Assembly: GCA_963807165.1 (NCBI GenBank)
Contig: CAWDZM010000001.1
Coordinates: forward strand, 507,590-571,589
Direction of reading: 5' to 3'
DNA length: 64,000 nucleotides
Source: an uncultured bacterium
Lineage (GTDB): Bacteria > Patescibacteriota > Minisyncoccia > UBA6257 > 2-01-FULL-56-20
A program made the position numbers and the translations under genes. Shown here piece after piece: positions 12,846-49,688 of this stretch. How positions within the stretch are numbered: the first letter of the stretch is position 1; each line of letters opens with the position of its first letter. The notes beneath the pieces are model-generated. The model did no database searches. It was not told where the DNA came from and was given only the letters and a program-made list of their open reading frames with translations.

Positions 12846-12938
12846 TCCTATTAAAATAGCAGGTTTTGGGGGATTTTCAAAGAAAAAAATCCCGCGGGGC
12901 ATAGTGCGCCACACGGGTGTTGTGCGAAACTTCAGCTA

Positions 12939-30511: not shown

Positions 30512-31267
30512 ACATCGATTTTATCAGTTTGATCGGGATTAATGCAACCTGAAACATCGTTTTGAGCGCGACTCATTCTGACTCGCGCTGTTTCATAGCC
30601 TGACATATTAGGCTGGTCGAGAAGCCTATTTAAATGTCACTACTTCCTGAACAAAAGGTCGAGCAAACCGAGCCCTTCGCGGAGCTCTACGATTATATCC
30701 GAATAATCGCAAGTATATGCGAAGGGCTCAATCAAACTAATGGAAATAAAGAAAGAACCCAAGATGGAGAAGAACGATTACTACGAAGCTCCAAGCCAAG
30801 TTCTGATAAATCCCCCATCACAGTCTTCTTACCCACGACGTCAAAGAGCTACTCAATTGCTCGACCACGTGGGCGTTGAAAACAATGAGGATACTGGAGG
30901 CCCTAGGGCTAGTCAGGATAGGCTCGAGCGATGATAACTTCAATGAAAGCTATATCGTTCTCAAGACAGAATTTGACTGGCTTTTCGCAGTCGATCCCAA
31001 CGCTGACCCGAACGAGAGGCCGATGGTTTAAACAAAATCCGACCCTGTGTATACGACAACTATCTCACATACGCAGGGTCGAATCGAGTTGAAAGATCAC
31101 AATAATAAAAAAATACATGAAAACGAAAACCGAAATAAAAATAAAGCTCGATATGACACGTTTAATGCTCATACGCGACCAGTCCAAGATTGAAACTCTA
31201 CGCTGGATGTTGAACGAAGATGAGGAAATGATCCGCGAGGCAGTTACGCTCGCGGCAGAAAACCCTG

Positions 31268-31320
31268 ATAAATGATTTATATATTCAGCTTAAACTAATG
31301 GCGGTAATGTCCTGATGACA
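31268..31320. repeat. ~53-nt direct repeat, copy 1
   Basis: aaatgatttatatattcagcttaaactaatggcggtaatgtcctgatgaca is ~85 percent identical to 33068-33120. Confidence 0.6.
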
Positions 31321-32901: not shown

Positions 32902-33067
32902 TAAATTAAGTATAGCAAATCAGACTATGAGTTTTCCATTCCGCCCAACTCCCCCATTTTCGCCGATTTCGGCAAACTCAAAATAACGCAGAGTATATAA
33001 AGAAAATCGACCTCATTGGAGATCGATTTTCATTCAAGTGGAGACGAACCGGACAGGTGGCAAACTT

Positions 33068-33120
33068 TTATAAACGATTTATATATTGCCGTAAAACTAA
33101 TGGCGGCAATGTCCTAATGA
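33068..33120. repeat. ~53-nt direct repeat, copy 2
   Basis: aaacgatttatatattgccgtaaaactaatggcggcaatgtcctaatgacc. It overlaps the stop codon of the 196-aa gene. Confidence 0.6.
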
Positions 33121-33704
33121 CCACTAACCTTGGTCGAAGCTAATGTTATCTCTTTGCGTGTCGCTTTTAGAAGAGCCTTTATAAAGGAAACCGCTTGATC
33201 GAGTTTGGGCGAATCCAGACGAGTCTGCGGTTCTTGTCTGACATAGTACTTACCATCTCTAACTGCATCCGTGAAAAACTCTAGAACCTCAGGAGGCTCT
33301 TTATTAAATGCACTTTTATATAGACGGGACAGGTTATGAGTTTTAATTGTTTTAGAAAGCCGAGGAGACCCATTGTGATCACTCACGGGTTTTATAACTC
33401 CTTTCAAAATCAACAATGATTTTAGAGCACATTCTAATGAAGCTCCATACCACATTAAAATTGGTTGCCTCATTCCTAGTAAATAGGGATTTATAATTTG
33501 CTTCTTTAAGGCTTTAGACTTCGGCGACATCGCCGATTCTTGAATTATTCTCCATCTCTCATGCGCTGATTCATACTTATGATGAAGTAAATCCGCTATA
33601 GCCTCATTGGCTTTTGAATTAGAGATCCAAACAAGATAATCAGAGGCCCACTTCCGATATTCATCATCCATAAATGTCTGAAGTTTGGTCTTTTCCATAT
33701 GCAC
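33114..33704 (-). CDS. hypothetical protein (last gene of the candidate defence operon)
   Basis: 196 aa, no confident motif; starts 14 nt after the GIY-YIG gene. Confidence 0.3.
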   Translation of the reverse strand: MHMEKTKLQTFMDDEYRKWASDYLVWISNSKANEAIADLLHHKYESAHERWRIIQESAMSPKSKALKKQIINPYLLGMRQPILMWYGASLECALKSLLILKGVIKPVSDHNGSPRLSKTIKTHNLSRLYKSAFNKEPPEVLEFFTDAVRDGKYYVRQEPQTRLDSPKLDQAVSFIKALLKATRKEITLASTKVSGH

Positions 33705-33718
33705 AGGGTCAGATTCGG

Positions 33719-34216: not shown

Positions 34217-34249
34217 ATGCGTGAAGATCGGAGGCGGTTATATAAAATA

Positions 34250-36155: not shown

Positions 36156-38957
36156 TTAGACTTCTATCTCTTTTCTTATTTTTTCAATACGAGCCTTTAA
36201 TTTACCATCTCTTTTCAGGTCCTTAGAGATTTTCTCGAAAGCGTATATAACCGTTGTGTGATCTCGCTTAAAGGTTCTGCCAATAGAAGGGAAAGACAAT
36301 TCCATCCCCTCCCTCATCAGATACATAGCTAATTGCCGTGCCTTTACAACTTCCGCCCACCTCCCTCTCTGAACGAGATCATCCTCTGAAACTCCATAGA
36401 GCTTCGCTGTTTTTTGAATGATAGAATCCACTGCAGATGACATATGAGCCTCTTGCTCTTTAATGTAGTCATGCTTCTCCTCTCCTTTTTCTTTCCCTGC
36501 AACCTCCTCATCCTTGCCATATTTTTTTGCTAAGGCATTATTTATAATCTGCCTTACTCTTTCTCGTGTTATGGAATATTTCTTCGCAATTTCCTCTAGT
36601 GTATGTGGATATTGATCATTAAGTCCAAATCTCATTTCAACCATAAGACCTTCTCTCTCCTCCATGCCATCGGTAATATCCTTATCGCTAACTACCTGAT
36701 CAGCAGTCAATGCTTTTAATTGTTTTTCTCTCTCAATGACTAAGGATTCTTTTTCCTCCACGAAATGCTTATAGATAGCGGCGCCATACTCCCATTTTTT
36801 TTGAGCAATGTAATAAAGGAGGTCGTAATCAGATCTTTTCGGCAACACACCTTTTTGCATGGCTTCTGGTATGGCAACATTAAGTGATTCACTCAATATA
36901 ATTTCCGCTAAATAGAGCTGGCCAGTTTGAGATTTTACGACTTCGCTCTTTCGAGGATTCTCCCCGAAATATCTTATGTTTATAGGATGATTAGGATTTA
37001 TAAGAATAAATCCGCAGGTTGGGCTTTCTGGATGATGATCATAAAATGCTTGGAATGGCATCGTAACCTTTTCATCAAAACTCCACCCTCGAAATTTACC
37101 ACTCAGAGAACTTGGCTTTTTGGGGATCCTATCGACGACATCAATCCTTGCTTGGGCCCTATATTCTTTGCAGGTCGCTTCAATAATTCCCGATTCTCCA
37201 ATTTGCTCTCCGGAAAAAATCACTGGCACCCTTGCAACTATACTGTTCCTATGATGACCTACGGCCAGCGTAACCTTGGTCTTTTTTAATTTAATATGCT
37301 CATTTGAACTGGTAAAAACTATTTTATCTCCATTTTTTATTAATCGCGCGTCAATATACAAAATCAACTTACTCTCTCTGTTGGCAACAATTCTCGTATA
37401 GTCAGGATGAAATTCTAAACCATTCCCAGGATAAAAAATCCCTTCTTTTATAACAGAAACAACAACCGACGACTTCCTTTGTTCGTGCGTTGCTTCTAGG
37501 GTATCAACTACTCCGACCTCGTTGCCAAGTATAGTGATTGTTTTAATTAAAATATCGTCGTTGCTATCGCCTGGATCCTCAACCTTGATAGAGTCGGGAG
37601 TAAAGCCTATGTTCTTTCTAAAAGCAGTAATTTTTACGATCGATCCAGGCTTTATTATCCTAGTGTCGATGGCTAGTTGCATACTATATTTTTTGTTCAC
37701 AGTTACAGCCATCTGGCTCCTCGCAAACTCCAATCCACCTGCAGGCCTTTTGTCACTAACAACACGAATAGTGCCATAGGCATCTTCGCCTGTGAGCTGA
37801 GAATATAACTTATTAAGCTCGTCGAAGGCTAACTTCTGTTTCTCTTGGACGGCCTCCGAAAGACCCCCTTCATCTACATGGTTTCTACCTTTGCTAATAA
37901 TGGGGTACAACCATTTTTTTACTATTGCCTCTAGTTGTTTATAAAATTCATGTTGAGTATTAAATCCATCTCTAGTATCTAAGAGTACTTCCTCCGGATT
38001 CTTTTTCTTATTTATTTTGTCTTTAATAATTTCTCGAGCTCCTTTTAATTTGAGAAAACCATAATACTTATCCGTTCCGGGAAAATTGTCCAATCCAAAA
38101 AACGTTTGATCATAAATTGTTTCTTCTTCGTCGTGAACAAGTAATCCATTTTCCCGCTCATCCCCAGCAACCGCCAAAGCTTCCTTTGATCTATAAAGGT
38201 TGGCCTCAATTTCGACTGGGGCATAATCTTCAAATTGCATCGAAAATGTTTGATGATCTACTGGCTCACCCTCAGGGAATTTATACCTAACAGCGGATTG
38301 CCTCATCCGTCCTTTTAGGTCCGTATACTGAAGCAGGACATGTCGAGTGTCATTTGAATTAATCAGTCTAAGCATATAAAAAACACTCAGCCTATTAGCT
38401 AAATTTTCAAACTCATATAGATGAGCATCTTCATCCGCAACAAATTCAACTATTGTTCCACGAGTAGAGTTAAGCTCCCATTTCTGTGCCGTTTTAGTAG
38501 CATCCCCCGGTACCGCATTTACATTTATAAACCGCTTATCGTCTCTTTCATAAAACTCGCAGGTGGAAGCCTCTCCGTTCTTTATGGTCTTAATAATCCC
38601 CTCAGAATGATAAAAAAGAACGTCTGAGATTCCCTGGCCGAAAAGACCTCTGACAGCATATCCTTCATATGCTCCACTTTTTTCAGCTCCGTAAACCTTA
38701 AACTTTTTCTCGAGATCGCTTTTGCTCATCCCCTCCGCATTATCAATAATTCGAACTAAACGGCTCTTTCTATTTACTTGTATAGTGATAGAACCAATGT
38801 CCGTTTTACCTCCTTCTCCCTTGGCGGAAAGAATGCGGTAGCTATCGTCCGAATTTGTGATGGGTTCGGTAAGCGTTTTTAAAATACTCTTTCCAACAGC
38901 GTTGGAACTTTTGCGCTTTAAATATCTATTATCAATAGTTACTTCAATCTCAGACAT
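36156..38957 (-). CDS. GHKL-ATPase fused to sigma70-region-4-like and DnaA-domain-IV-like HTH domains
   Basis: N-terminus has LTEPITNSDDSY (N-box E..NS.DA), IIDNAEGMSKSD (DxGxG) and RGLFGQGISDV (G2 box). Near residue 740: EREGLMVEMRFGLNDQYPHTLEEIAKKYSITRERVRQIINNALAKKYG (sigma70 r4.2 pattern). C-terminus: VSEDDLVQRGRWAEVVKARQLAMYLMREGMELSFPSIGRTFKRDHTTVIYAFEKI (DnaA C-terminal HTH). 933 aa. Confidence 0.55.
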   Translation of the reverse strand: MSEIEVTIDNRYLKRKSSNAVGKSILKTLTEPITNSDDSYRILSAKGEGGKTDIGSITIQVNRKSRLVRIIDNAEGMSKSDLEKKFKVYGAEKSGAYEGYAVRGLFGQGISDVLFYHSEGIIKTIKNGEASTCEFYERDDKRFINVNAVPGDATKTAQKWELNSTRGTIVEFVADEDAHLYEFENLANRLSVFYMLRLINSNDTRHVLLQYTDLKGRMRQSAVRYKFPEGEPVDHQTFSMQFEDYAPVEIEANLYRSKEALAVAGDERENGLLVHDEEETIYDQTFFGLDNFPGTDKYYGFLKLKGAREIIKDKINKKKNPEEVLLDTRDGFNTQHEFYKQLEAIVKKWLYPIISKGRNHVDEGGLSEAVQEKQKLAFDELNKLYSQLTGEDAYGTIRVVSDKRPAGGLEFARSQMAVTVNKKYSMQLAIDTRIIKPGSIVKITAFRKNIGFTPDSIKVEDPGDSNDDILIKTITILGNEVGVVDTLEATHEQRKSSVVVSVIKEGIFYPGNGLEFHPDYTRIVANRESKLILYIDARLIKNGDKIVFTSSNEHIKLKKTKVTLAVGHHRNSIVARVPVIFSGEQIGESGIIEATCKEYRAQARIDVVDRIPKKPSSLSGKFRGWSFDEKVTMPFQAFYDHHPESPTCGFILINPNHPINIRYFGENPRKSEVVKSQTGQLYLAEIILSESLNVAIPEAMQKGVLPKRSDYDLLYYIAQKKWEYGAAIYKHFVEEKESLVIEREKQLKALTADQVVSDKDITDGMEEREGLMVEMRFGLNDQYPHTLEEIAKKYSITRERVRQIINNALAKKYGKDEEVAGKEKGEEKHDYIKEQEAHMSSAVDSIIQKTAKLYGVSEDDLVQRGRWAEVVKARQLAMYLMREGMELSFPSIGRTFKRDHTTVIYAFEKISKDLKRDGKLKARIEKIRKEIEV

Positions 38958-38960
38958 ATT

Positions 38961-39608
38961 TTATTTAAAAATGGTTTCGAATCTAATTTCAACCCACACA
39001 AGAAATTCTTTTGCTTCGTTATCAGTAGACGAACTCACGGACTGTCTAAGTTGTTTAATATAATCCGCTAAAACATACTTCGGAGTATACGGAACTGCTT
39101 TCAAGAATGAAAGAATCTCGTATTCCGTAACTTCACGATTTCCGTTTTGCCACTTAAGGAAAAGGCCAGTTTTTTTTATCTCTAGAACATCGTCCATAGG
39201 AGATCTACCACGAGACCTTTTAGCCGTTGTTTTAGCCTCTCTCTGTTGATTGGGATGATTTAATAGATCGCGAGTTTGTCTTCCTATCTCTTTTCCAACT
39301 TCAGTAAGAAAGAAGCCATTTTCCAAATTCCCAGTTGCCCAATTTTTCCTCTTCGGGTCCACTAACCTTCGCAATGATTTACTGATTCTATTTGTATCCG
39401 GATACTCGGAAAAACTTGCCATCGAAAATTTCTTGGGAAACAGTTTAAAGAGCGCAACCGCCATATAATCAAAATATAGAGGGACCTTCAGCTCCTCTAG
39501 TGTCATCGACGCAAAAGCAGACAATCTATCAAGATCTAAATTCTCATACGATACTGGATCGAATGGCTTTAATTCTTCGATGCTCTTTTTGATATTAATA
39601 TCCGTCAT
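38961..39608 (-). CDS. hypothetical protein (operon gene 2)
   Basis: 215 aa, basic central region, no motif recognised. Coding supported by the 4-nt ATGA overlap with the upstream gene. Confidence 0.3.
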   Translation of the reverse strand: MTDINIKKSIEELKPFDPVSYENLDLDRLSAFASMTLEELKVPLYFDYMAVALFKLFPKKFSMASFSEYPDTNRISKSLRRLVDPKRKNWATGNLENGFFLTEVGKEIGRQTRDLLNHPNQQREAKTTAKRSRGRSPMDDVLEIKKTGLFLKWQNGNREVTEYEILSFLKAVPYTPKYVLADYIKQLRQSVSSSTDNEAKEFLVWVEIRFETIFK

Positions 39609-39838
39609 AACTTGAATTCTTTATTTTTGAGGATATGGAACTTCGCCTTAATTTCTTTAGCTTTTTTATCAATCTCGGAAAATATTTTTTCGATATCCCT
39701 TGCTTCATACTCATAAGCACTACGATTGGAGCAATGCCCTAAAACATTAAGGCGCTTTAAAACCTCGTTGGTACGAAGCGTACCAAGCCTTATAAAACGA
39801 TCTCTTTTGGTTTCCATCTGTCTAATTTCCTTTTCCAT
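39605..39838 (-). CDS. hypothetical small protein (operon gene 1)
   Basis: 77 aa, charged/helical; first ORF of the operon. Confidence 0.25.
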   Translation of the reverse strand: MEKEIRQMETKRDRFIRLGTLRTNEVLKRLNVLGHCSNRSAYEYEARDIEKIFSEIDKKAKEIKAKFHILKNKEFKL

Positions 39839-40200
39839 TTCTCTAGATGTTAGCTATTTAATTAGTTCGACTGCATGCAACCAGTTTAGCACATGTGCTA
39901 TTAGTGTCAAGCTAATACTGTGGATTACCTCTGGATAACTACATTGAGCTTAAAATGAGCGTATTTACATACAAATTCTATTATCCTATAATTTATGTAC
40001 AACTAAATAGGGTTGCCTAAACTCATCAGCAATGGCGAGCATGGCACAAAAACCAGTGACGGCTAGAAAGCTCTCAATCAGAGCACCGTCACTGGTCATA
40101 TCTCGAAAGGGTTATGGGTCCTCACGGATCGCTGGTTGGGAGCTTTCTGATTTAAAAATCCCCAACCGGCCCCAAAGGTCGGTTTTAGTTTAAAGAAAAA

Positions 40201-41112
40201 ATGGAAGCAAAAAATCACATCAATACACAAGGGGAATTCCATCAGGCGCTCTGTGAGGATAAACAGTTTGTCCGAGTAGCGGAAGATATGTCGTCGGTCT
40301 ATGAGCGCATCGCTATGCTCCATCTGGGAGGAAAATCATTGAAAGGCATCCCTACGGGATTTAAGGGATTGGATGATAAGCTGTCCGGACTCCATAAATC
40401 AGAACTGACTGTTATCGGCGGTCGATCAGGTTGCGGAAAAACGGCGTTGCTCTTGGACATTGCACGAAGCGCCATCCGTAAAGGATATAAGGTAGGGATC
40501 TTCTCTCCTGACATGGACAGGAATCGCGTCATCACGAAAATAATTGCGGCGGATTTAGGAATCCCACTCTGGCAGATGATCACTGGACGATTGGATAAAA
40601 AGAATTACACGACACTCAAGCGATCCCAAAAGAAGATCAGCTCAATGAAGCTCTCGATCGACGATACTCCTCGCCTCGATATCACCGAGATGCGAGCAAG
40701 GGCTATCGAGCTTCAGGAATACCACGGCTTGGATCTTCTGTTAGTCGATAGCGCACAGCTCATACAGTCCTCCTCAATCCTCGGAGAAGATCCGGTGAAG
40801 CATATGACCGAAATTGCTCGCGGACTTAAACTGATCGCCCAAGAGTTGAAAATCCCAGTCGTCATTACTGCTCCTCTCATCCGTCATCTTCACGGAGAAG
40901 GGAGATGGCCACAAGGATCCGATTTATGCGAACTTGAACGATCGGCCGATGTCGTTCTCCTCGTTTATCCGATGAATTTGGATACAGCGAATTTCCGGGA
41001 GATGCGCGGAGGAATAGATGTAAGCCTCGGCATTACGAAAAATCAGGGGAAATTTGGGATGATAGATCTACGGTTTGATTCGGGACTTACAAGTTTCAGT
41101 GAAACAAAATAA
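40201..41112 (+). CDS. DnaB C-terminal-domain-only helicase (RepA-like, RecA fold)
   Basis: IPTGFKGLDDKLSGLHKSELTVIGGRSGCGKTALLLDIA (DnaB linker plus Walker A) and LLLVDSAQL (Walker B). It lacks the DnaB N-terminal domain; 303 aa. Confidence 0.6.
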   Translation: MEAKNHINTQGEFHQALCEDKQFVRVAEDMSSVYERIAMLHLGGKSLKGIPTGFKGLDDKLSGLHKSELTVIGGRSGCGKTALLLDIARSAIRKGYKVGIFSPDMDRNRVITKIIAADLGIPLWQMITGRLDKKNYTTLKRSQKKISSMKLSIDDTPRLDITEMRARAIELQEYHGLDLLLVDSAQLIQSSSILGEDPVKHMTEIARGLKLIAQELKIPVVITAPLIRHLHGEGRWPQGSDLCELERSADVVLLVYPMNLDTANFREMRGGIDVSLGITKNQGKFGMIDLRFDSGLTSFSETK

Positions 41113-41124
41113 GAAATAAGAAAT

Positions 41125-41328
41125 ATGAATTGGACGATCGCTTTTATCTTCATCATTGTTTCTGCGGTATGGGTTTACTGGGACGCAAAGAATCTGAAGG
41201 ACGCTGGTGCTGATGTGGATACCACTCCGGCTACATGGCTCATTGCTGTCCTCGTATTCTGGCTTGCCTTTTTCCCTCTATATTTCGTTGCTCGGGTAAA
41301 ATATAAAAGATCACTCAGCAAAAGTTGA
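41125..41328 (+). CDS. hypothetical small membrane protein
   Basis: 67 aa with two hydrophobic helices. Confidence 0.25.
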   Translation: MNWTIAFIFIIVSAVWVYWDAKNLKDAGADVDTTPATWLIAVLVFWLAFFPLYFVARVKYKRSLSKS

Positions 41329-41347
41329 TATCCACCACCCTAGAAAG

Positions 41348-41584
41348 ATGTTGAATAAATTCTTCGTAAAATCCATTAAGCAGTACCAGAAAAAGATTTC
41401 TCCGCTATTAGAAAAATGTGGAGTTGAGTGTTTATTCGTACCAAGCTGTTCACAATATGCCGCCCTTTGTTTTCAAAAATATAAATTTACAAAAGCATTT
41501 TCGCTCGCCATTCTTAGGATTCTTTCTTGTAATCCCATAAACGCGTTATATATCAGATCGAAGTTCTCAAATAGTCAAAAATAA
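41348..41584 (+). CDS. yidD: membrane protein insertion efficiency factor YidD-like
   Basis: YQKKISPLLEKCGVECLFVPSCSQYA...LRILSCNP matches the YidD pattern (Q..iSP....C.f.PSCS.Y ... RI.RC.P). Confidence 0.5.
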   Translation: MLNKFFVKSIKQYQKKISPLLEKCGVECLFVPSCSQYAALCFQKYKFTKAFSLAILRILSCNPINALYIRSKFSNSQK

Positions 41585-41592
41585 AAACTAAT

Positions 41593-42081
41593 ATGGCAGA
41601 TATCATTCAATCACAACCTAAAAAAGTTATTAAGCCCAACCCGAATCCGTGTGGAACATGTGCTGGTGTTGGCATCGTTATGATTATCCTCGTTGGTATT
41701 TATATCATATATGCCTTTAACGTAAGCAATCAGAATACCCAGACCATCTTGAATTCTAGGCCTACTCCAGTGACCGCAGGCCAACTCATCGCCGCATATG
41801 CGGGCAACACAATCTCTGGCGACGATCGATATAAGGGTAAGCTCATTGAAATAACTGGCCTAGTACAAAATGTGGATACTACGCTTGGGCAACCATATGT
41901 CGCGCTCACCGACAATGGTTCAGACGCATCAAATATATTATGTTCATTTAATTCGGGCGCTGATAGTCAACTTGCATCATTGGTAAGCGGCCAAACAGTT
42001 ACGCTTGAAGGAATTGGCGATGGAGCATCTGCATTGGGCGGAAGTGTAATGGTAAATAATTGTTCTTTGATCACCCAGTAA
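41593..42081 (+). CDS. hypothetical secreted/membrane-anchored protein
   Basis: N-terminal TM anchor and a Ser/Gly-rich ectodomain. Confidence 0.3.
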   Translation: MADIIQSQPKKVIKPNPNPCGTCAGVGIVMIILVGIYIIYAFNVSNQNTQTILNSRPTPVTAGQLIAAYAGNTISGDDRYKGKLIEITGLVQNVDTTLGQPYVALTDNGSDASNILCSFNSGADSQLASLVSGQTVTLEGIGDGASALGGSVMVNNCSLITQ

Positions 42082-42082
42082 T

Positions 42083-42985
42083 ATGAAAAGTTATAAGATA
42101 AATAAGTGGTTCGCTGGGATTGTCTTAGGCATCTTTGCCATATTGGTAATATGGGTGATTGGTTCAAGTATGGGACAGTCTAACCAAAACACGTCAACGA
42201 ACCCACAAGGCTCCTTAACTACTGCTCAACAAACAGGAAATAATAACCAATCGGCTTGGTACTATGTGAATTCTAACAATCAATGCGTTCAAGCGCCGGG
42301 GACTTATGAAAATGAGGACTCGTGCCAAAATGCAATGGGGTCGTCGTGTTTTCCGGACGAACCGAATTGCAATGGAATGAATCAAAGCGAAACGCTCTAC
42401 TACATCAACTCTTCAAATCAATGTGTTTCTGCTCCGCATAATCCTTATTCTATTACGCTAAGCGATGGAACAACGGCTGGAGTTATTGGGCAACAATATA
42501 ATTGCGAGCAAGATGTGGGCTATTCATGCTACACCGAAAATACCTGCGGAGGGGTTGGGCAACCCGGCGTGATTGTCATTAAGGGAGTTTCATACAAATT
42601 AGTAACCCTTAACGATCTTGAGAACAATCTTAACAACCCCGGTTTTGTAAATGGAACTGGCACCGTAAGTTTGGTTGCAATTCAAGGAACACTTAAGGGA
42701 ATCGTTCAAGAAAAGGACGGAACAGACTACGACTTAGTTATTGATACTGGAGGCGGTTACATCCTTGATAGTGCCGGAACGATCGATGTGAACACAAAAG
42801 CATCAAATGGATTTGATCCATCAAGTTTGTCCATTGGAACAAACATCACAGCTGGCGGAGCATTTATCGGTGGTTTATTCACTCTAAAGGATATCCTCCC
42901 AACAGAGCCAGAATTAAATTCTCTTGGACTTCCATCCAACACCATCGTGCTAGTGAATGGCCTCGGGGATGTCGAACAAAAGTAA
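42083..42985 (+). CDS. hypothetical secreted Cys-rich protein with an internal repeat
   Basis: N-terminal TM; two repeats YY(V/I)NS(N/S)NQCV(Q/S)AP; many Cys. Confidence 0.3.
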   Translation: MKSYKINKWFAGIVLGIFAILVIWVIGSSMGQSNQNTSTNPQGSLTTAQQTGNNNQSAWYYVNSNNQCVQAPGTYENEDSCQNAMGSSCFPDEPNCNGMNQSETLYYINSSNQCVSAPHNPYSITLSDGTTAGVIGQQYNCEQDVGYSCYTENTCGGVGQPGVIVIKGVSYKLVTLNDLENNLNNPGFVNGTGTVSLVAIQGTLKGIVQEKDGTDYDLVIDTGGGYILDSAGTIDVNTKASNGFDPSSLSIGTNITAGGAFIGGLFTLKDILPTEPELNSLGLPSNTIVLVNGLGDVEQK

Positions 42986-43161
42986 TAATTTATGTACCGC
43001 TGACTTCCAAGAAATACTTGCCTAAAGCTTCTGCCCCGGTTATCAAAGAAATTGAAAAATTGAGTATCTCAACTTTTCAGCGAAAGCCTGCGAAATTCTT
43101 TAACTCAGGTATCTAGGAATACATACGAACGTGCCTTTGATTATTTCATCAAGCTTGGGCG

Positions 43162-43890
43162 TTGTATAATACTAAGGTGAACAATCTAGTTGAATTGATA
43201 TCAAACTCATTCCCTAAGGCCGCTTCAAAATTAAGAGAGTCGGTCTATGGTATTAAGGCGCAGACACCGAATAATTCTGTGGTCTCCATGGGAACCGCAT
43301 TTATGGTTGCGCCGGGGGTTTTATGTACGGTGGCACACGTTCTATACCAAGGTGGAGATTTTACCGCGCCGAGGTACACAACCTTTTTTGTCATAAAAGC
43401 TTCAGAGGTAGGACTGCCGTTCCAAATGGAAACGTGTACATTTATAGGCGAAGATACCATAAAGGATATCGCATTGCTCAGGATTGAAAACCCAAGGTCA
43501 AAAAGTTGCGTTGCCCTCGAGACTTCAAAAGTAGGACGAGGGACGGCATGCGGATCATTAGGATTTCCTTTGTCGAATATAAGTCCAGCCGGAGTGTTTG
43601 AACTGACAGAAAGATTTCAGGGTGCGCATATTTCCGGATATTTTCCCGTCAATTTAAATAATTGGGATTCTTTCTATTACGAAACGGATTCTCTTATGTA
43701 TCCCGGATCAAGCGGCTCTCCGGGATTTCTTATTAATGGAAAAGTATATGGCATGCAAAAAATGTCGCATCCCCACGCTAGTATACCCGGGAGCAATCAG
43801 AGTCAAGCAACAGATAGAGTGGCTATTTCTCGTTGGGTTTACGCCAAAGATATCGTCGACGTTGCACAAGCAAACAATGTTTTGATTTAA
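43162..43890 (+). CDS. trypsin-like serine protease (S1 family)
   Basis: CTVAHV (His), DIALLRI (Asp) and GSSGSPGF (GDSGGP-type Ser) catalytic triad contexts. Confidence 0.5.
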   Translation: MYNTKVNNLVELISNSFPKAASKLRESVYGIKAQTPNNSVVSMGTAFMVAPGVLCTVAHVLYQGGDFTAPRYTTFFVIKASEVGLPFQMETCTFIGEDTIKDIALLRIENPRSKSCVALETSKVGRGTACGSLGFPLSNISPAGVFELTERFQGAHISGYFPVNLNNWDSFYYETDSLMYPGSSGSPGFLINGKVYGMQKMSHPHASIPGSNQSQATDRVAISRWVYAKDIVDVAQANNVLI

Positions 43891-44127
43891 CTTGGTTGAA
43901 AAAGGGATTCTTTCTCGCCACTAAACAGTTCGCCATTGTGCTAAAACTGACGCTATAGGCTCTTTTAGGCATCCATAAAGGAATAATGAGATCGAGCGGT
44001 GGGCTTTTCGTGTACGACAGCTTACGGCTTGAATTATGCTCAAAAAGTGATATTTTATAGGTACTACCTGCCGTGTACGTGAAAATCACAATGAAAACAG
44101 ATACTCGGTTTTAACGGAGTTGATCAA

Positions 44128-44937
44128 ATGAAGCTGACCAGGCAATCAAAACTTTCCACCAAACGAGACTCTGATGATTATCTTTTCGACGACGAGCCGG
44201 ATAATGTTTTTAATTTTACGACATATAAGAAAGTTAAGGAGCGGTGGCTGAACCTTAAAGAAAGAAGGCTTTTCCAAAATCTTGTTGCGTCATTCCGTAA
44301 AAATATCGGGATCAGCATAGGCGACCCCTCAGTTCGCAAGAATTCATTTTTTGGAGGAAGAACAAAAGCTGCTAACAAGCGCAAGAAATTGCTGAACGAC
44401 TTTAAAGTGAGCCTTAAGCGGGAATTGGACGTCGACACATTTTTATTAGGAACAGCGGAATCTTTTCTGCTCTATGGGGAAAACGGCGATCCATATGATC
44501 CGTCCATAATATATGACCCCCTGGATCAGCCCGGTGGCACTTTTATAATCAACACAGGCCACCCTGTTCAAATGACAATACGCCCTGGAGCATCCCAAAA
44601 AGACGTTCTTGATAGTTTAAAAGGTCTATGGCCGATGATCGAATTAGCATCCCGCGTAGCTTCTCCGAAACGGTATGGGACAAAACGTCTCAAGATGAGA
44701 CATAAACGAAAACGAGACGATCAACTCGAACAACTTAGGGCAAATAAAGTTATTACATCAGGTGGCGATGTTGATTTTGGTAGGGCTCGTGAATATTTGC
44801 GCTCTAAAGGAATAGTTCTGACATCTACACTCCGACCGGCAGTTGAAAAGGCATTTAAAGAAATTGACATTGAACTCCCGCGCGGATGGGCTGCCAGAAA
44901 GGCAGTCATAACGACGAGAAGACGTAAGATCAGTTAA
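44128..44937 (+). CDS. hypothetical basic protein
   Basis: 269 aa, Lys/Arg-rich, no motif. Confidence 0.25.
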   Translation: MKLTRQSKLSTKRDSDDYLFDDEPDNVFNFTTYKKVKERWLNLKERRLFQNLVASFRKNIGISIGDPSVRKNSFFGGRTKAANKRKKLLNDFKVSLKRELDVDTFLLGTAESFLLYGENGDPYDPSIIYDPLDQPGGTFIINTGHPVQMTIRPGASQKDVLDSLKGLWPMIELASRVASPKRYGTKRLKMRHKRKRDDQLEQLRANKVITSGGDVDFGRAREYLRSKGIVLTSTLRPAVEKAFKEIDIELPRGWAARKAVITTRRRKIS

Positions 44938-45135
44938 TAAGATAACTTTTTTGATCGCAAAAAGGTGTGGATGAACCACGCCTTTTTTATTGTCTAATTC
45001 TGTCATGCCGGACGATAAAAATTTTAATACGGTCGACGACGGCGAGGAGGGCCTCGAGGATTTAAGCTCATATCTTGGAGCGATAGCGGCGATTCTTGAG
45101 TCCATATTAGAAGGCAAAATTAACTAAGAACAATC

Positions 45136-46665
45136 ATGAACGACGAAAACACAAATGAACAAGGCGAAAAGAAGCGGTCTTTGGCCGACCGACTCATGGA
45201 GTGGCTAGACGGGGTTGAGTTCTTCTACGATCAAGACGAACAGTGCTATGCCGCGATCGAACGAGACTCACGACGTGAAATTCATCGAATACGATCAAGA
45301 CAATTCCAGAGCTACCTCTCGCACCTTTCATGGGAGCACCTTAATATGGCACTCCCTAAGACAGCGAAGGAAAGTATTTCGGACACACTGGAAGCGATCG
45401 CGCGGTTTAATGGCAAGCAATATGACCTCAATCTGAGAACTGCATGGCAGGGCAATGAGCTCTGGTACGATTTGGGCGACTTTAGGGCAGTAAAGATCAC
45501 GAGTGAAGGTTGGCGAGTGGTCAGGAAGCCGCCGATCCTCTTTAAGAGATATCACGATGGTGTCCAGTGCGTGCCGGAACCGGATGGCGACATTAATACG
45601 ATCTTTGAGTTCTTCAACCTTGATCGCGCGGAGGGATTCGACGAAGCGAAGCTCCTCATGATTACTTATCTGGTTACGGCTCTCATTCCGGACATCGCGA
45701 GGCCGGTTCTCGAATTAGAGGGATCACAAGGCTCCGCGAAATCAACAACAGCAAAGCTGATTAAAGATCTGATCGATCCCTCCATTATGGAATCAGTGGC
45801 CATGCATCGCGACGTCCAACAGATGATCCAATTGTGCGATCACAACTACTACATCGCCTTCGACAACCTATCGCGATTAAGCGACGAGCAAAGCGACGCA
45901 ATTTGTCGAGCGTGCACCGGAGAAGGGATGAACAAGAGAAAGCTATTCACGGATAGTGAAGATATCTTTTACCACTATAAAAGACTCATCAGCTTGAACG
46001 GCATCAACTTGGTGGCACGAAAACCTGACCTTCTCAACCGAGCGCTCACCTTTGATCTCGAGCCGATCCCAGCGGAACGACGAATGGAAGAATCTGTGCT
46101 CCGAAAGAGGTTCAGCGAGGCAAAACCGAAACTTCTCGGCGCGATGTTCACAATCCTCTCCAACGCAATGGCTGTTAAAAGAAAAGGAGACATCACTATG
46201 AAAAAGGAACATCGGCTGACGGACTATCTCATGTGGTCCGGCAGAATAGCTGTGGCTCTCGGCCTGACACCTGAAGACTTTCTCAATGCCTTTAGGGGAA
46301 ACATTCAAACCCAAGACGATGAGGTGCTCGAAGGAAGTGTATTGGCTCAAACCATCGTCAAGCTCGCACACGAGCTCGCGGTTGAGCGGACAAGTTACAC
46401 CCCCGAGGATCTTTACCAAAAGTTGAAGTCCTACGCAGGTCCGTTTGAATCGGATGGATACAGCGACTTCCCTGGCCGTTCGGGATGGCTGTGGAAGAAG
46501 ATTAAGATCATACACGCCAACCTGACGGCAATAGGCATTGACGTTAGACATAGCCCAAGTACCAAACGTCCGAGAGAAATTGAAATTGTGATCAATAAGA
46601 AATTGCTACGAGGTAATGACGGTACTGACCATGCTGACCAAAGCGGAAAGCTATTGCCGCTTTAG
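45136..46665 (+). CDS. P-loop NTPase, putative replication/primase-associated (VirE/D5-like) protein
   Basis: LELEGSQGSAKSTTAKLIKDL is a Walker-A-like segment. The 509-aa architecture recalls plasmid/phage VirE or D5-type proteins. Tentative. Confidence 0.3.
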   Translation: MNDENTNEQGEKKRSLADRLMEWLDGVEFFYDQDEQCYAAIERDSRREIHRIRSRQFQSYLSHLSWEHLNMALPKTAKESISDTLEAIARFNGKQYDLNLRTAWQGNELWYDLGDFRAVKITSEGWRVVRKPPILFKRYHDGVQCVPEPDGDINTIFEFFNLDRAEGFDEAKLLMITYLVTALIPDIARPVLELEGSQGSAKSTTAKLIKDLIDPSIMESVAMHRDVQQMIQLCDHNYYIAFDNLSRLSDEQSDAICRACTGEGMNKRKLFTDSEDIFYHYKRLISLNGINLVARKPDLLNRALTFDLEPIPAERRMEESVLRKRFSEAKPKLLGAMFTILSNAMAVKRKGDITMKKEHRLTDYLMWSGRIAVALGLTPEDFLNAFRGNIQTQDDEVLEGSVLAQTIVKLAHELAVERTSYTPEDLYQKLKSYAGPFESDGYSDFPGRSGWLWKKIKIIHANLTAIGIDVRHSPSTKRPREIEIVINKKLLRGNDGTDHADQSGKLLPL

Positions 46666-46999
46666 GATAATATCCGTCGGTACCGACAGCACCGACAGTA
46701 AAATTAAGACAATAAAAGAAATGAAAGAAATTAAAGTTGACATACTGAAGTGGTATGAATTCTTACACCAGCGCGATAAGCGACGATACCAGCAATTTAT
46801 GCAACGGCATCGCGATTTAATGTCTCACCTCCTGATGGAAGCATTTCCCGGAATGATAGTTAATTCGGAAAAGGCTCTGGCAGAAATATTTTTCCTTGCG
46901 ATGGCGAGGAAGATTTCGCCAGATAAGATCGCTTCTCCTCTGGAAAAGCGAATTAAGCGAATCATCAGGTATAGCCTGCAAAATAAAGCCTGTTCATAG
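46616..46999 (+). CDS. hypothetical protein upstream of the recombinases
   Basis: 127-aa ORF overlapping the end of the upstream gene. Could be a small regulator. Confidence 0.2.
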   Translation: MTVLTMLTKAESYCRFRIISVGTDSTDSKIKTIKEMKEIKVDILKWYEFLHQRDKRRYQQFMQRHRDLMSHLLMEAFPGMIVNSEKALAEIFFLAMARKISPDKIASPLEKRIKRIIRYSLQNKACS

Positions 47000-47068
47000 C
47001 CGTCCTTAGAAAACGGAGTTGGGTCTCTTAAGATTAAATTATAAGTAAATAATTTAATCCCACATCCA

Positions 47069-47812
47069 ATGCAAAAATTCTTCGCATATTGCAGAACCAG
47101 CACAGAGAATCAACGCGAAGAAAAGACGATAGATCTACAAGTTGAAAACCTGACGCAGTATGCGAAGAAGAACGGCATCGAAATTACCGACTGGTTCAAG
47201 GACGATGGAGTAAGCGGCGGACTGGAACACCGACCGGAATTAATGCGGTTAATGAAAGGCTTGGAACAAGACAGCGAAGCGGAAGGGGTGTTGATCTACA
47301 AACTAGATCGCCTCGCTCGTGATCTTTACATCCAAGAGGGCTTGATCAGAGAGTTCTCGAAGCTTGGGAAACAAATCATCTCCACATTGGAGCCAGATCT
47401 TGATAGCAACGATCCATTCAGAAAAGCCTTCCGTCAGATGCTTGGGGTATTTGCTGAATTTGAAAAAGCGATGATCACCTTGCGGATGAAGAACGGCAGA
47501 GATAGTGCGGTTGCCAAAGGCGGATGGCATGGTGGAAGCATCCTCGGCTACAAGCATAAAGACGGCCACCTCATTATTGATCCAATAGAAGCAGAGGTAG
47601 TCAAACGAATATTTGACCTCCGAAAGAAAAAGAAAATAACACCAAAACAAATCGCAGAATTACTAAACAACGAAAATGTCCCAACAAAACGAAAGACCAC
47701 AAAGTGGCATAGTTACACAGTTAAAAAGATTCTTGGAAACGGTCTCTACCGAGGGAAGATCCGTTATAAAGGGAAAACCTATGATGGCAAGCATGAACCG
47801 ATCATCCAATAA
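47069..47812 (+). CDS. serine recombinase, truncated (resolvase catalytic plus partial recombinase domain)
   Basis: YCRTSTENQ (catalytic Ser) and LDRLARD motifs. It ends at ...GKHEPIIQ, before the zinc-ribbon and coiled-coil regions found in large serine recombinases. Confidence 0.65.
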   Translation: MQKFFAYCRTSTENQREEKTIDLQVENLTQYAKKNGIEITDWFKDDGVSGGLEHRPELMRLMKGLEQDSEAEGVLIYKLDRLARDLYIQEGLIREFSKLGKQIISTLEPDLDSNDPFRKAFRQMLGVFAEFEKAMITLRMKNGRDSAVAKGGWHGGSILGYKHKDGHLIIDPIEAEVVKRIFDLRKKKKITPKQIAELLNNENVPTKRKTTKWHSYTVKKILGNGLYRGKIRYKGKTYDGKHEPIIQ

Positions 47813-49269
47813 TCAATTTCTTGCTTATGTGCGGGTCAGTTCAAAAGACCAAAGCCGTGGCGCATCGCTTGATGAGCAAAGATCCCGCATTGAGGAATAC
47901 GCTCGCAGAAAAGAAATCTTCATCGTTAAATTCTACGGCGAAGTAGAGTCGGCATCAAAGACAGGCCGAGAAATATTTGACGATATGATAAAACGCCTAA
48001 AAAAAGAGCACCTCGGAGGAATTATCTTCCACAAGACCGACCGAAGCGCACGAAACCCAAGAGATCAAGCTCTCCTCTACGAACTCATGCAGGAGGGATA
48101 TGAACTTCATTTCGTTACCGAAGGGATCTCGACGAACGATCATTCCGGTAGGAACCTCATTTACATCATGTGGGGTCTCGCCAGTGGATATAGCGAGAAT
48201 CTTAAAAATGAGATTAATAAGGGAGTTATTGGACGACTCAAACAAGGCAAGTGGCCACTTCAATCCCCTGTCGGCTATATGAGAACTGGCAACATTAAAG
48301 ATTGCATAAAAGGGATTGATCCGATCAAAGGCCCACTCATTAAGAAACTCTTTGAGGAGTACGCAACTGGAAGGTACTCGGTTCAAGAGCTTGGCCCTCT
48401 CTCTAAAAAAATCGGACTGACCAATAACAATGGTGGCTCTCTCGGTAGAGATTCTCTCCATAACATCCTTCGCAATCCGTTTTATTACGGCCTCCTAAAA
48501 CACAAATACGGCACCTTTCCGGCAGAGCATGAGCCTCTTTTTTCCAAGACGCTGTTCGATAAGGTGCAGTATGTTCTTAAAGAAAAAGGGTTCAAAAAGA
48601 GCCGGGAATTTGGGTACAGCTTTAAAGGCCTCCTGAAATGCCAAATATGTGCCCGACGGATGAAGGCAACCACTGCCAAAGGGAAGTATCACTACTACCA
48701 CTGCCGTGATTGGAATTGCGGAGTAAAAACGGTAGCAGAAATAAAACTGGAAGCTGATTTCATCGAAGCATTAAAAGGGTTGGAGTTTTCGGACGAAGAA
48801 GCGCATATGTTTAAACTGGCGATCAACGCCTTTCGTGGCACAGTACAAAAAACACAGACCGATATGGCTACCTCCCATACGCTTGAAATCAAAAGCATCA
48901 AAGCGAGGTTAGAAGGCCTGTTCCAGAAAATATATGGAGCAAAAGGTGGATGATGAAACCTACAACAAAGCCCGAACTCAGCTGTTAAATCGGGAAATAG
49001 ACCTCAAAGAACAAATCGCCGTATTAGAAAAAACAGACGGCAACGCATTCAACGAGATGGATGAATTGGTCAAACTCCTGAAAAATCCGGCGCAGGCATA
49101 CGAAAAAGCCGATCCAGTGAATAAGCGACGATTGCTGATTTCTATGGTGGCAAACTTAACACTACACGATAAAACGCTAGTAGTTACTTGGAAAAAACAC
49201 TTTGAGGTGGTCGCAAATCGACCAAAATTAAATTCAAGTGGAAGCGGGCGGAATCGAACCGCCGTGTAA
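47781..49269 (+). CDS. large serine recombinase, C-terminal coiled-coil in the +1 frame (frameshift near 48936)
   Basis: MMASMNRSSNNQFLAYVRVSSKDQ (catalytic Ser), recombinase domain, and zinc ribbon CQICARRM...HYYHCRDWNCG. Frame 0 stops at 48953, but the coiled-coil continuation YMEQKVDDETYNKARTQLLNREIDLKEQIAVLEK... reads on in ORF 48934..49269. Confidence 0.6.
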
Positions 49270-49542
49270 AGATAATGCCGATGGGCCGTCTACGAGTGTA
49301 GTTTAGCTAGGCTAAGCGAAGTGATCATATTTTCGCGCCGGGCGTATGATCGTCAACCTGACGCTAGTCTCCTTATATAAGACCGGTATCAATCCAAGAG
49401 ACCCGGACTGGCCGATCCCGCACGGTTACGCGAAAGCGAAAGCGCGCGGAGCTGCAACGTTAGAGTTGGCAGTTATAGGTTGTGCAGCGATAACGACGCT
49501 GCCAACGACTCGCAAACCCACGGATTATCTTTATCGAAGCCA
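49239..49542 (-). ncRNA. ssrA: tmRNA (ssrA)
   Basis: Minus-strand RNA: 5' GGGAGCG pairs with 3' CGCUUCC-A, giving a G3-U70 wobble (Ala identity element). T-arm GGCGG-UUCGAUU-CCGCC. 5' region GGGAGCGCAUUGGCUUCGAUA resembles tmRNA 5' ends. Candidate tag ORF ...GCC AAC UCU AAC GUU GCA GCU CCG CGC GCU UUC GCU UUC GCG UAA (ANSNVAAPRAFAFA). ~304 nt, CCA not encoded. Confidence 0.55.
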
Positions 49543-49688
49543 ATGCGCTCCCCCATGCATACTTGCATGTTTAGTAGCCTTCGATAAGGCTGCCGCTATT
49601 ATACCATACGCAGTGCTATAATTAAAGGGTACAAAAAACGCAGCCAAAGGTCGAAGACTGAAACGATAACCAGAATTTAATCTCTACT

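What the first reader, a model, noticed from the sequence alone, without database searches (positions are those of the whole stretch)
47069..49269. Two tandem serine recombinase genes at the island end: one truncated, one frameshifted
The first (247 aa) has the catalytic domain (YCRTSTENQ, LDRLARD) but stops at ...GKHEPIIQ, exactly where the second gene's homologous region (...PAEHEPLFSK) continues into a zinc ribbon. The second (from 47781) is complete through the zinc ribbon but hits a stop at 48953. Its coiled-coil tail (YMEQKVDDETYNKARTQLL...) continues in the +1 frame from 48934 to 49269, overlapping the tmRNA 3' end. One extra base around 48936 (tatatggag) would explain this. So there is either a decaying integration module or a sequencing indel. 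If real, the island may be immobilised.
Basis: seen in the sequence. Interest (0 to 1): 0.5.

Follow-up and report, generated by a model that had tools for sequence, protein, structure and literature searches.

The report
Paired serine recombinases at tmRNA island end
The two adjacent recombinase genes are a conserved short-plus-long pair that inserts a 16-kb island at the end of the tmRNA gene; the short one is not truncated, and the one-base frameshift in the long one is very recent or, more likely, an assembly error.

Summary
The ORFs are as described: a 247-aa serine recombinase (47069-47812), a large serine recombinase (LSR) from 47793 that stops at 48953, and its C-terminal 111 aa in the +1 frame to 49269, overlapping the tmRNA 3' end.

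The first gene is not truncated. More than 100 homologues are 244-251 aa with conserved catalytic residues. In 15 related loci one sits directly upstream of a ~480-550-aa LSR.

The frameshift is real in this assembly. There is one extra base at 48926-48930, whereas four relatives at 83-87% nucleotide identity read TTC CAA AAA TAT ATG. It lies at the tip of the predicted coiled-coil hairpin. Codons downstream show no relaxed selection (window-specific 12 synonymous : 3 non-synonymous, against 88:21 upstream). IleRS and iPGM in the same window also carry single-base indels. An assembly error is therefore the likelier cause, and otherwise the mutation is very recent.

In this family the LSR 3' end nearly always overlaps a tmRNA or tRNA 3' end. 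I located attL at 33032-33042, an 11-bp repeat of the attR core, which gives a 16.2-kb island.

The closest precedent is the DsiA/DsiB module of Dehalococcoides ssrA islands. This is a new member of a known kind, of moderate interest.

The parts
33032..33042 (+). attL core: ATTCAAGTGGA, a direct repeat of the attR core. This is the left boundary of the island.
   Evidence: It is the only other exact copy of TTCAAGTGGA in the window and was first seen as an 11-nt exact match. The sequence to its right is homologous to the attL sides of three other islands of this family.
33043..33121 (+). Island left-end (P') sequence: GACGAACCGGACAG-GTGGCAAACT-TTTATAAACGATTTATATATT...
   Evidence: It aligns with L014 1873+, L028 2720+ and L006 ~4385+. 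In all of these the core is followed, about 14 nt later, by an invariant GTGG(C/A)AAACT. In L028 and L006 the site carries a 13-nt or 7-nt repeat of the local t(m)RNA 3' end.
40014..40130 (+). LOOT RNA (RF03000) inside the island, at the head of the plus-strand gene block.
   Evidence: Rfam 84.7 bits against a gathering score of 46.4. The same RNA lies upstream of the recombinases, on the same strand, in 9 related islands.
47069..47812 (+). Short serine recombinase gene (247 aa), full length: catalytic domain, alpha-E helix and LSR-type recombinase domain, with no zinc ribbon or coiled coil.
   Evidence: Pfam. More than 100 homologues are 244-251 aa. Invariant residues include Y7 R9 S11 Q15 R81 R84 D85. 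The AF2 model has mean pLDDT 79.6, and 82-96 in the recombinase domain. Foldseek matches SPbeta, Bxb1 and A118 integrases.
47793..48953 (+). Large serine recombinase, 5' part in frame 0: catalytic domain, recombinase domain, zinc ribbon and first coiled-coil helix. It ends 7 out-of-frame codons after the shift.
   Evidence: Pfam. This is the 386-aa product annotated in the public record (P0001). Alignment with relatives.
48926..48930 (+). Site of the one extra base (CCA[G]AAAAT here, CCAAAAAT in relatives).
   Evidence: DNA alignment with L014 and L015 and with L016 and L017. The protein junction reads ...LFQK-YMEQKV... in all 12 relatives that cover it.
48930..49269 (+). Large serine recombinase, 3' part in the +1 frame (ORF from ATG 48934): returning coiled-coil helix and C-terminal sub-domain. 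The last ~9 codons are antisense to ssrA.
   Evidence: In the AF2 model of the repaired protein the shift falls at the turn between helices 338-387 and 392-418.
49232..49242 (+). attR core ATTCAAGTGGA. It spans the last ~5 nt of the tmRNA gene plus 6 nt downstream of it, and the crossover lies somewhere inside it.
   Evidence: Repeat with 33032-33042. Homology with L017 ends exactly after GTGGA at 49242.
49236..49552 (-). tmRNA gene (ssrA), intact. This is the integration target.
   Evidence: ARAGORN gives tag peptide ANSNVAAPRAFAFA. Rfam 108.4 bits, full length.
31220..31319 (+). Degenerate second copy of the island left-end sequence, possibly the boundary of an older island remnant lying in tandem (31.2-33.0 kb).
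   Evidence: 60-nt repeat at 82% identity, 31260-31319 and 33062-33121. The alignment extends the similarity into the core region.

Best explanation
This is the integration module of a 16.2-kb genomic island (33043-49242) inserted at the extreme 3' end of the tmRNA gene of a Patescibacteria-type genome.

The module is a conserved gene pair.
- The short gene (247 aa) encodes a serine recombinase with a catalytic domain and an LSR-type recombinase domain. It is complete as it stands.
- Its stop overlaps by 20 nt the start of a ~491-aa large serine recombinase.
- The large recombinase's 3' end runs into the att core and then reads antisense into ssrA.

Inferred mechanism: the large enzyme recognises attP (its own 3' end plus the island's left end) and attB (the t(m)RNA 3' end). 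It exchanges strands inside a short common core, here ATTCAAGTGGA. The target RNA is therefore not altered and no long repeat is made. The short enzyme is inferred to be a co-expressed partner subunit or directionality factor that does not depend on the target.

The split of the large gene comes from one extra base at 48926-48930. The most likely cause is an error in the assembly. If so, the module is intact and the island is not immobilised.
For: Short gene is full length:
- More than 100 homologues of 244-251 aa.
- Catalytic residues invariant in 27 sequences.
- Folded recombinase domain in the AF2 model.

The pair is conserved:
- The short gene lies directly upstream of the long one in L001, L002, L006-L011, L016, L017, L027, L029, L030, L031 and the P0189 contig.
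- L006 is a 3.1-kb element carrying only one other ORF besides the pair.

t(m)RNA targeting:
- The long ORF overlaps the 3' end of a tmRNA, or of tRNA-Pro, tRNA-Arg, tRNA-Glu or tRNA-His, in 16 loci.
- LSRs that are only 26-28% identical sit beside tRNA-Gly, tRNA-Gln and tRNA-Asn.

att sites.

The long enzyme sets specificity:
- The short protein is always more conserved than the long one. In L006 the figures are 92% against 63%, and the target there is tRNA-Pro.

The frameshift is an artefact or very recent:
- dN/dS against L014 is 0.039 before the shift and 0.05 after it.
- Window-specific changes are 88 synonymous: 21 non-synonymous before the shift and 12:3 after it.
- IleRS is split by one extra base inside its RHGE|SEN motif at about 11274.
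- iPGM carries a +1 and a -1 indel about 70 nt apart.
- Intact 491-aa versions exist at about 89% identity (L016).
Against: - No reads were available, so the extra base could be real.
- The site is not a long homopolymer (G followed by A4).
- Relatives L014 and L015 carry a clearly real inactivating deletion in the same module, seen in two samples. Inactivation of this module therefore does happen in this lineage.
- The repaired 491-aa sequence is not found in the 15-billion-protein collection.
- The IleRS and iPGM indels could themselves be genuine in a degenerating genome.
- The partner role of the short enzyme is inference only. L003, L012 and L028 have the long gene alone, and L032/L033 have the short gene alone.
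Confidence: 0.6

Rival explanations
1. The frameshift is a genuine but very recent mutation. The large recombinase is truncated at the tip of its coiled coil and loses the returning helix and the C-terminal sub-domain. The island can no longer excise or re-integrate. The short gene is still intact.
For: - The assembly as deposited has the break, and both pieces are annotated separately (P0001 at 386 aa and P0250 at 111 aa).
- A close relative has independently lost most of the module by a deletion that fuses short residues ~79-113 to long residue ~170. It was seen in two samples.
- The window also shows a remnant of an older island next to attL. Decay of elements at this ssrA site is therefore normal.
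Against: - There is no excess of non-synonymous change downstream of the shift (12 synonymous: 3 non-synonymous, the same ratio as upstream). The lesion would have to be extremely young.
- An essential gene (IleRS) and iPGM in the same 64 kb carry similar single-base indels, which points to assembly error.
Confidence: 0.3
2. Programmed or tolerated +1 ribosomal frameshifting on AAA-A before the rare AUA codon yields some full-length recombinase, giving low, regulated expression.
For: tRNA-Lys can re-pair perfectly one base downstream (C AGA AAA TAT to AAA|A TAT). The shifted reading gives exactly the conserved ...FQK-YMEQ... sequence (sequence; alignments).
Against: None of 12 relatives covering the junction needs a frameshift, including four at 83-87% nucleotide identity. 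The site is therefore not conserved, and no stimulatory element was sought or seen.
Confidence: 0.04
3. One reading: the first gene is a truncated remnant of a second large recombinase, and the whole module is decaying.
For: The short protein ends inside the Pfam Recombinase profile (positions 1-87 of 102), at the HEPII motif after which large recombinases continue to the zinc ribbon.
Against: - The same end point and length are found in more than 100 homologues, at 51-95% identity.
- Catalytic residues are invariant.
- dN/dS is 0.019 on the piece shared with L014.
- The arrangement with the long gene is conserved.
- The two proteins are only 22-25% identical, so this is an ancient split rather than a recent truncation.
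Confidence: 0.02

Closest known systems
Dehalococcoides ssrA-specific genomic islands, integration module DsiA/DsiB (McMurdie et al. 2011, PMC3146451)
   Same: - A large serine recombinase sits next to ssrA, and its 3' end reads across the att site into ssrA with a non-conserved tail.
- A smaller serine recombinase lies just upstream in the same orientation.
- Cargo is modular and variable.
- Islands accumulate in tandem at ssrA (for the paper; here).
   Different: - DsiA is ~200 aa and described as lacking a DNA-binding domain. The short protein here is 247 aa and has an LSR-type recombinase domain.
- The Dehalococcoides crossover is placed in the T-loop and leaves a 20-bp repeat. Here the common core is 11 bp at the extreme 3' end (7-16 bp in relatives).
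- The RecF-like, ParB and Mom genes and the pseudo-tRNA of the Dehalococcoides module were not found.
- This family also uses ordinary tRNA genes.
- Sequence orthology to DsiB was not tested.
SCCmec cassette chromosome recombinases CcrA/CcrB
   Same: Two co-transcribed serine recombinases act together on one element. CcrB is the best NCBIfam match for both proteins here.
   Different: - Scores of 82-95 bits are far below the 700-900-bit cut-offs, so the proteins are not members.
- Per NCBIfam, both Ccr proteins are large (profile lengths 442 and 542).
- From general knowledge, the Ccr target is a protein-coding gene, not a t(m)RNA gene.
Phage large serine integrases (Bxb1, phiC31, A118, SPbeta SprA) with separate directionality factors
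   Same: Same domain order: catalytic domain, recombinase domain, zinc ribbon and coiled coil. Short att sites with a small common core.
   Different: Those integrases act alone for integration, use small non-recombinase directionality factors, and mostly target protein-coding genes. Mageeney et al. 2020 (PMC7192596) found t(m)RNA use in only 14 of 297 serine-integrase elements and called it previously unreported.
Tyrosine-integrase islands in tRNA/tmRNA genes (Islander/TIGER; PMC4383910, PMC7192596)
   Same: Same class of target (the 3' end of a tRNA or tmRNA gene), the target gene is preserved, and the integrase gene lies next to the target.
   Different: A different enzyme family and chemistry. 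No long displaced tDNA fragment marks the far end.

Membership tests
Large serine recombinase (serine integrase) | N-terminal resolvase-type catalytic domain with the Ser nucleophile and Arg/Asp residues | tested here: met
   PF00239 E 1.1e-22. R18, S20, Q24, D87, R88 and R91 are at least 90% conserved in 13 sequences.
Large serine recombinase (serine integrase) | Recombinase domain followed by a zinc ribbon with four Cys | tested here: met
   PF07508 E 8.5e-12 and PF13408 E 4.1e-9. C287, C290, C308 and C313 are invariant.
Large serine recombinase (serine integrase) | Coiled-coil hairpin inserted in the zinc-ribbon domain | tested here: met
   The AF2 model of the repaired protein has helices 338-387 and 392-418 forming a hairpin. 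Local pLDDT is mostly 74-88 although the mean is 75. This is a prediction only.
Large serine recombinase (serine integrase) | Single uninterrupted reading frame | tested here: not met
   One extra base at 48926-48930 splits the gene in this assembly. Relatives are intact.
Dehalococcoides ssrA-GI type module (DsiA/DsiB) | Large recombinase adjacent to ssrA with its 3' end overlapping the att site and ssrA, and a small serine recombinase upstream | tested here: met
   Description of the Dehalococcoides module.
Dehalococcoides ssrA-GI type module (DsiA/DsiB) | [quoted passage not shown] | tested here: not met
   There is no copy of the terminal 19-40 nt with up to 3 mismatches, and the best ungapped match is 15 of 20. 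The repeat here is 11 bp and covers only the last ~5 nt of ssrA. L027 does have a 16-nt repeat reaching the T-stem.
Dehalococcoides ssrA-GI type module (DsiA/DsiB) | Syntenic RecF-like, ParB, Mom genes and a tRNA-Gly-like pseudo-tRNA | tested here: not met
   Pfam scans of the island ORFs found none of these. ARAGORN and Rfam found no extra tRNA in the island.
Dehalococcoides ssrA-GI type module (DsiA/DsiB) | Sequence orthology to DsiB/DsiA | not tested
CcrA/CcrB cassette chromosome recombinases | Score above the NCBIfam equivalog cut-off | tested here: not met
   CcrB scored 95 and 82 bits against a cut-off of 900. CcrA scored 63 and 74 bits against a cut-off of 700.
Small serine recombinase (resolvase/invertase type), considered for the 247-aa protein | Catalytic domain followed by a short C-terminal helix-turn-helix domain, ~180-200 aa in total | tested here: not met
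   The C-terminal half matches the LSR Recombinase domain PF07508. It superposes on A118, Bxb1 and SPbeta integrase recombinase domains at rmsd 2.2-3.5 A over 113-129 columns.
   The family length is 244-251 aa. dN/dS is 0.019 on the shared piece.

The most novel reading that the evidence does not exclude
Patescibacteria carry a widespread, so far undescribed family of small integrative elements with three signature parts:
- a short serine recombinase (catalytic plus recombinase domain, no zinc ribbon);
- a large serine recombinase whose gene ends in the att core;
- in most members, a LOOT RNA.

The elements insert at the extreme 3' end of tmRNA and various tRNA genes. In this reading the short enzyme is an obligate hetero-partner or a recombinase-derived directionality factor. 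That would make this a serine-recombinase counterpart of the classical tyrosine-integrase tDNA islands, and it would give the orphan LOOT RNA a biological context.
Probability: 0.3. Interest if true: 0.6.

Novelty: new member of a known kind. Interest (0 to 1): 0.38.

Why it matters
For this window, it corrects the annotation. The island most likely has a complete, working integration module, and its limits can now be given (33043-49242). The same analysis flags that this assembly probably carries about one indel per 16 kb, which affects how any 'pseudogene' seen in it should be read.

More generally, serine integrases that systematically use tRNA and tmRNA genes are barely documented. There is one Dehalococcoides study, and a 2020 survey called such use previously unreported. 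This family offers many natural attB/attP pairs with different tDNA targets, a minimal 3.1-kb element, and a testable two-recombinase system. Those are useful both for understanding mobile DNA in Patescibacteria and as a source of new site-specific integrases.

Tried and rejected
[quoted passage not shown] None was found with 40-, 19- or 12-mers, or by ungapped scanning.
- Dyad symmetry of the L017 junction and of the reconstructed attP and attB. It was no better than shuffled sequence, so half-sites were left undefined.
- The L017 junction as a model attP. Its right arm is found nowhere else and lacks the GTGGCAAACT motif, and its downstream 319-aa protein has no relative in the window. What L017 represents is unresolved.
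- Further recombinase remnants in the window by tblastn and sensitive blastn. Nothing significant (one search was a mis-specified query).
- Viral contigs. There are only relatives at 29% identity or less, so there is no evidence that these are known phages.
- Exact look-up of the repaired 491-aa protein, to find an independent assembly. It is absent. Look-up of P0001 contigs failed.
- Conservation of the neighbouring 509-aa gene and other cargo across islands. It is found only in L016, so only the recombinase pair is the shared module.
- Literature on the LOOT RNA. Nothing informative is in the held text.
- One search failed on a file name, and exceeded the size limit.
Full report
**What is in the sequence**

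The ORF listing and the sequence show three co-oriented ORFs:
- 47069-47812 (247 aa);
- 47676/47793-48953;
- 48934-49269, which is +1 relative to the second.

Pfam finds Resolvase and Recombinase domains in the first. It finds Resolvase, Recombinase and Zn_ribbon_recom in the second, and nothing significant in the third. ARAGORN and Rfam place an intact tmRNA gene at 49236/8-49552 on the minus strand. The third ORF therefore overlaps its 3' end by about 32 nt. G+C falls from about 0.52 to 0.38-0.48 between roughly 26 and 49 kb, which fits foreign DNA ending at the tmRNA gene.

**The first gene is not truncated**

A search with the 247-aa protein returned 453 hits. The best 120 are almost all 244-251 aa, at 51-95% identity, and mostly from Patescibacteria/CPR metagenomes. 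In an alignment of 27 of them the catalytic positions are invariant (Y7, R9, S11, Q15, R81, R84, D85).

The AF2 model (mean pLDDT 79.6) shows a resolvase fold, a long alpha-E helix and a well-predicted recombinase domain that ends after a beta-hairpin. Foldseek matches it to the SPbeta, Bxb1 and A118 integrases. The protein is thus an LSR-like enzyme that lacks the zinc ribbon and coiled coil by design, not by truncation. It is only 22-25% identical to its neighbour, so the two are old paralogues.

**The pair is conserved**

tblastn and gene calls show a short gene immediately upstream of a 477-547-aa large recombinase in 15 related loci: L001, L002, L006-L011, L016, L017, L027, L029, L030, L031 and the P0189 contig. 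The two genes usually overlap by 14-38 nt, and by 20 nt here and in L016 and L001.

There are exceptions. The long gene stands alone in L003, L012 and L028, and the short gene alone in L032/L033.

In every pair the short protein is more conserved than the long one. For example, in L006 the figures are 92% and 63%, and that element sits in tRNA-Pro rather than tmRNA. This suggests the long enzyme carries the target specificity and the short one does not. That step is inference.

L006 is a 3.1-kb element with only one other ORF, so the pair plus its att site looks self-sufficient. Cargo is not shared between islands.

**The frameshift**

A conceptual fusion of ORF2 and ORF3 aligns over 96-100% of its length with relatives of 477-506 aa. 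Two proteins at about 89% identity, P0248 (491 aa) and P0241, and the 92%-identical P0003 all read ...LFQK-YMEQKVDDE... across the junction. At the DNA level, L014, L015, L016 and L017 read TTCCAAAAATATATGGA, whereas the window reads TTCCAGAAAATATATGGA. The window therefore has one extra base at 48926-48930.

In the AF2 model of the repaired protein the break lies at the turn between the two long helices, 338-387 and 392-418. The truncated product would lack half the coiled coil and the C-terminal sub-domain. By what is known of serine integrases (general knowledge), it should then be unable to synapse.

**Is the frameshift real?**

Reads were not available, so I used two indirect tests.

Selection:
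- Against L014, dN/dS is 0.039 before the shift, 0.05 after it, and 0.019 for the short-gene piece. The chromosomal Nramp gene gives 0.07.
- Changes specific to the window lineage, polarised with L016 and L017, are 88 synonymous: 21 non-synonymous before the shift and 12:3 after it.
- The segment that would be untranslated shows no relaxation at all.

Assembly quality:
- IleRS is split into two overlapping ORFs in different frames. A single-ORF homologue (L027, 1184 aa) switches frame at about 11274, where the conserved RHGE-SEN motif is broken by one extra base.
- iPGM has about 25 codons in the wrong frame between an insertion near 1834 and a deletion near 1902.

An essential synthetase is unlikely to be truly broken. 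I therefore put an assembly artefact at about 0.6-0.65, a real but very young mutation at about 0.3, and programmed +1 slippage on AAA-A at a few percent. The slippage reading would reproduce the conserved sequence, but the site is not conserved in any relative.

**Target and att sites**

The 3' end of the long gene overlaps a t(m)RNA 3' end by 19-100 nt or more, on the opposite strand, in these loci:

| Target | Loci |
|---|---|
| tmRNA | window, L002, L003, L007, L011, L012, L014/L015, L016, L027, L028, L029 |
| tRNA-Pro | L006 |
| tRNA-Arg | L009, L010 |
| tRNA-Glu | L030 |
| tRNA-His | L031 |

. LSRs that are only 26-28% identical lie beside tRNA-Gly, tRNA-Gln and tRNA-Asn. The C-terminal tails of the proteins simply translate the local tDNA and are not conserved.

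No long repeat of the ssrA end exists in the window. However, TTCAAGTGGA occurs exactly twice, at 33033 and 49233, both on the plus strand. The sequence to the right of 33042 (GACGAACCGGACAG GTGGCAAACT TTTATAAACGATTTATATATT) is homologous to sites in three other islands:
- L014;
- L028, which has a 13-nt repeat AATATTGGTGGAG of its tmRNA end;
- L006, which has a 7-nt repeat GTCGGGC of its tRNA-Pro end.

Each of these sites lies at the expected far boundary. L027 has a 16-nt repeat. Homology between the window and L017 stops exactly after GTGGA.

I conclude that attL is at 33032-33042 and attR at 49232-49242, that the island is 16.2 kb, and that strand exchange occurs inside an 11-bp core. That core covers the last ~5 nt of ssrA and 6 nt beyond it. 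The exact crossover dinucleotide and the half-sites remain undefined.

The left arm of attL resembles a decayed LSR 3' end (AAATCGACC...ATTCAAGTGGA). A degenerate copy of the left-end sequence lies at about 31220-31319. Together these suggest an older island remnant in tandem. This point is tentative.

**Relatives that inform history**

- L016 carries an intact pair at 85% nucleotide identity next to the same tmRNA.
- L014 and L015, from two different samples, carry a deletion joining short-gene residues ~79-113 to long-gene residue ~170.
- L014 also shows the chromosomal Nramp gene only about 0.4 kb from its attL.

Real inactivation of this module does therefore occur in the lineage. That keeps the 'real mutation' rival alive.

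**Comparison with known systems**

The closest precedent is the Dehalococcoides ssrA island module (PMC3146451). It has a 540-aa CcrB-like recombinase, DsiB, whose 3' end always overlaps the att site and ssrA. A ~200-aa serine recombinase, DsiA, lies upstream, and the islands sit in tandem.

Differences from that module:
- the short protein here has a recombinase domain;
- the core is shorter and lies at the extreme 3' end rather than in the T-loop;
- the other Dsi module genes are absent;
- ordinary tRNA genes are also used.

NCBIfam puts both proteins nearest CcrB, XisF and CcrA, but far below the cut-offs. Mageeney et al. 2020 (PMC7192596) found t(m)RNA use in 14 of 297 serine-integrase elements and considered it unreported. 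I found no paper in the library describing this arrangement in Patescibacteria.

**Verdict**

The finding as written is largely ordinary: a normal two-gene module with one probably artefactual base. Around it sits a coherent, apparently undescribed Patescibacterial family of tDNA-targeting serine-recombinase elements. This is a new member of a known kind, with interest 0.38.

Noticed in passing
window 9302-12914 (minus strand), break at ~11270-11281: The isoleucyl-tRNA synthetase gene is split into two overlapping ORFs in different frames. One extra base interrupts the RHGE|SEN motif of an inserted histidine-phosphatase domain. The L027 homologue is a single 1184-aa ORF. This is probably an assembly indel.
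   Followed up: yes
window 866-2527, indels near 1834 and 1902: The cofactor-independent phosphoglycerate mutase gene has about 25 codons in the +1 frame, between a one-base insertion and a one-base deletion. Frame 0 hits TGA at 1847.
   Followed up: yes
window 40014-40130 (+); also L002 2933, L003 2471, L007 1523, L008 3225, L010 2354, L011 48, L028 7061, L029 5677, L030 7231: A LOOT RNA (Rfam RF03000, an orphan motif) is present in this island and in 9 related islands. It is always on the recombinase strand, 2.6-9 kb upstream, and in the four islands whose gene maps I checked (window, L028, L029, L030) it sits in an intergenic gap at the head of the plus-strand gene block. It appears to be a component of this element family.
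   Followed up: partly
L014 4514-5596 and L015 917-1999: A 360-aa hybrid ORF made by an ~890-bp deletion that joins the short recombinase (residues ~79-113, no catalytic Ser) to the long one (from residue ~170). It is identical in two independent samples.
   Followed up: partly
L001 7223-7446 and 11047-11270: A perfect 224-nt direct repeat of the 3' end of the large recombinase gene, 3.8 kb apart, in the one close relative with no adjacent t(m)RNA gene. A short motif (TGGAAATCTGTTTGAGGTGTTAG) also recurs four times nearby.
   Followed up: no
L017 2228-2270: A recombinase pair with 83% nucleotide identity to the window, whose homology stops exactly after TTCAAGTGGA. It continues into unrelated, non-tRNA sequence that lacks the usual left-end motif. 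It could be an unusual attP, a secondary site or a rearrangement.
   Followed up: partly
window 33057-33066 and 49147-49156; L006 4399 and 7363; L028 2734 and 11351: The motif GTGG(C/A)AAACT lies 14 nt to the right of the attL core. It also lies about 95 nt before the attR core, inside the recombinase gene (MVAN/MVEN codons). The C/A variant matches between the two places in L006. Its meaning is unknown.
   Followed up: no
window 34250-38957 and 26295-27080: Island cargo looks defence-related. It includes a SMODS + AGS_C nucleotidyltransferase next to a SLATT_4 effector, and a 933-aa protein combining HATPase_c_3, sigma-70 region 4 and a DnaA C-terminal HTH. A Schlafen/AlbA_2 protein lies in the older segment.
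   Followed up: no
L004 5735-5750 and 7464-7479: A 16-nt inverted copy of the tRNA-Gly 3' end plus flank lies 270 nt upstream of a distantly related (28%) large recombinase gene. The two copies bracket the gene.
   Followed up: no
window 31260-31319 and 33062-33121: A 60-nt direct repeat (82% identity) of the island left-end sequence. Together with the LSR-3'-end-like left arm of attL, it suggests a 1.8-kb remnant of an older island lying in tandem.
   Followed up: partly
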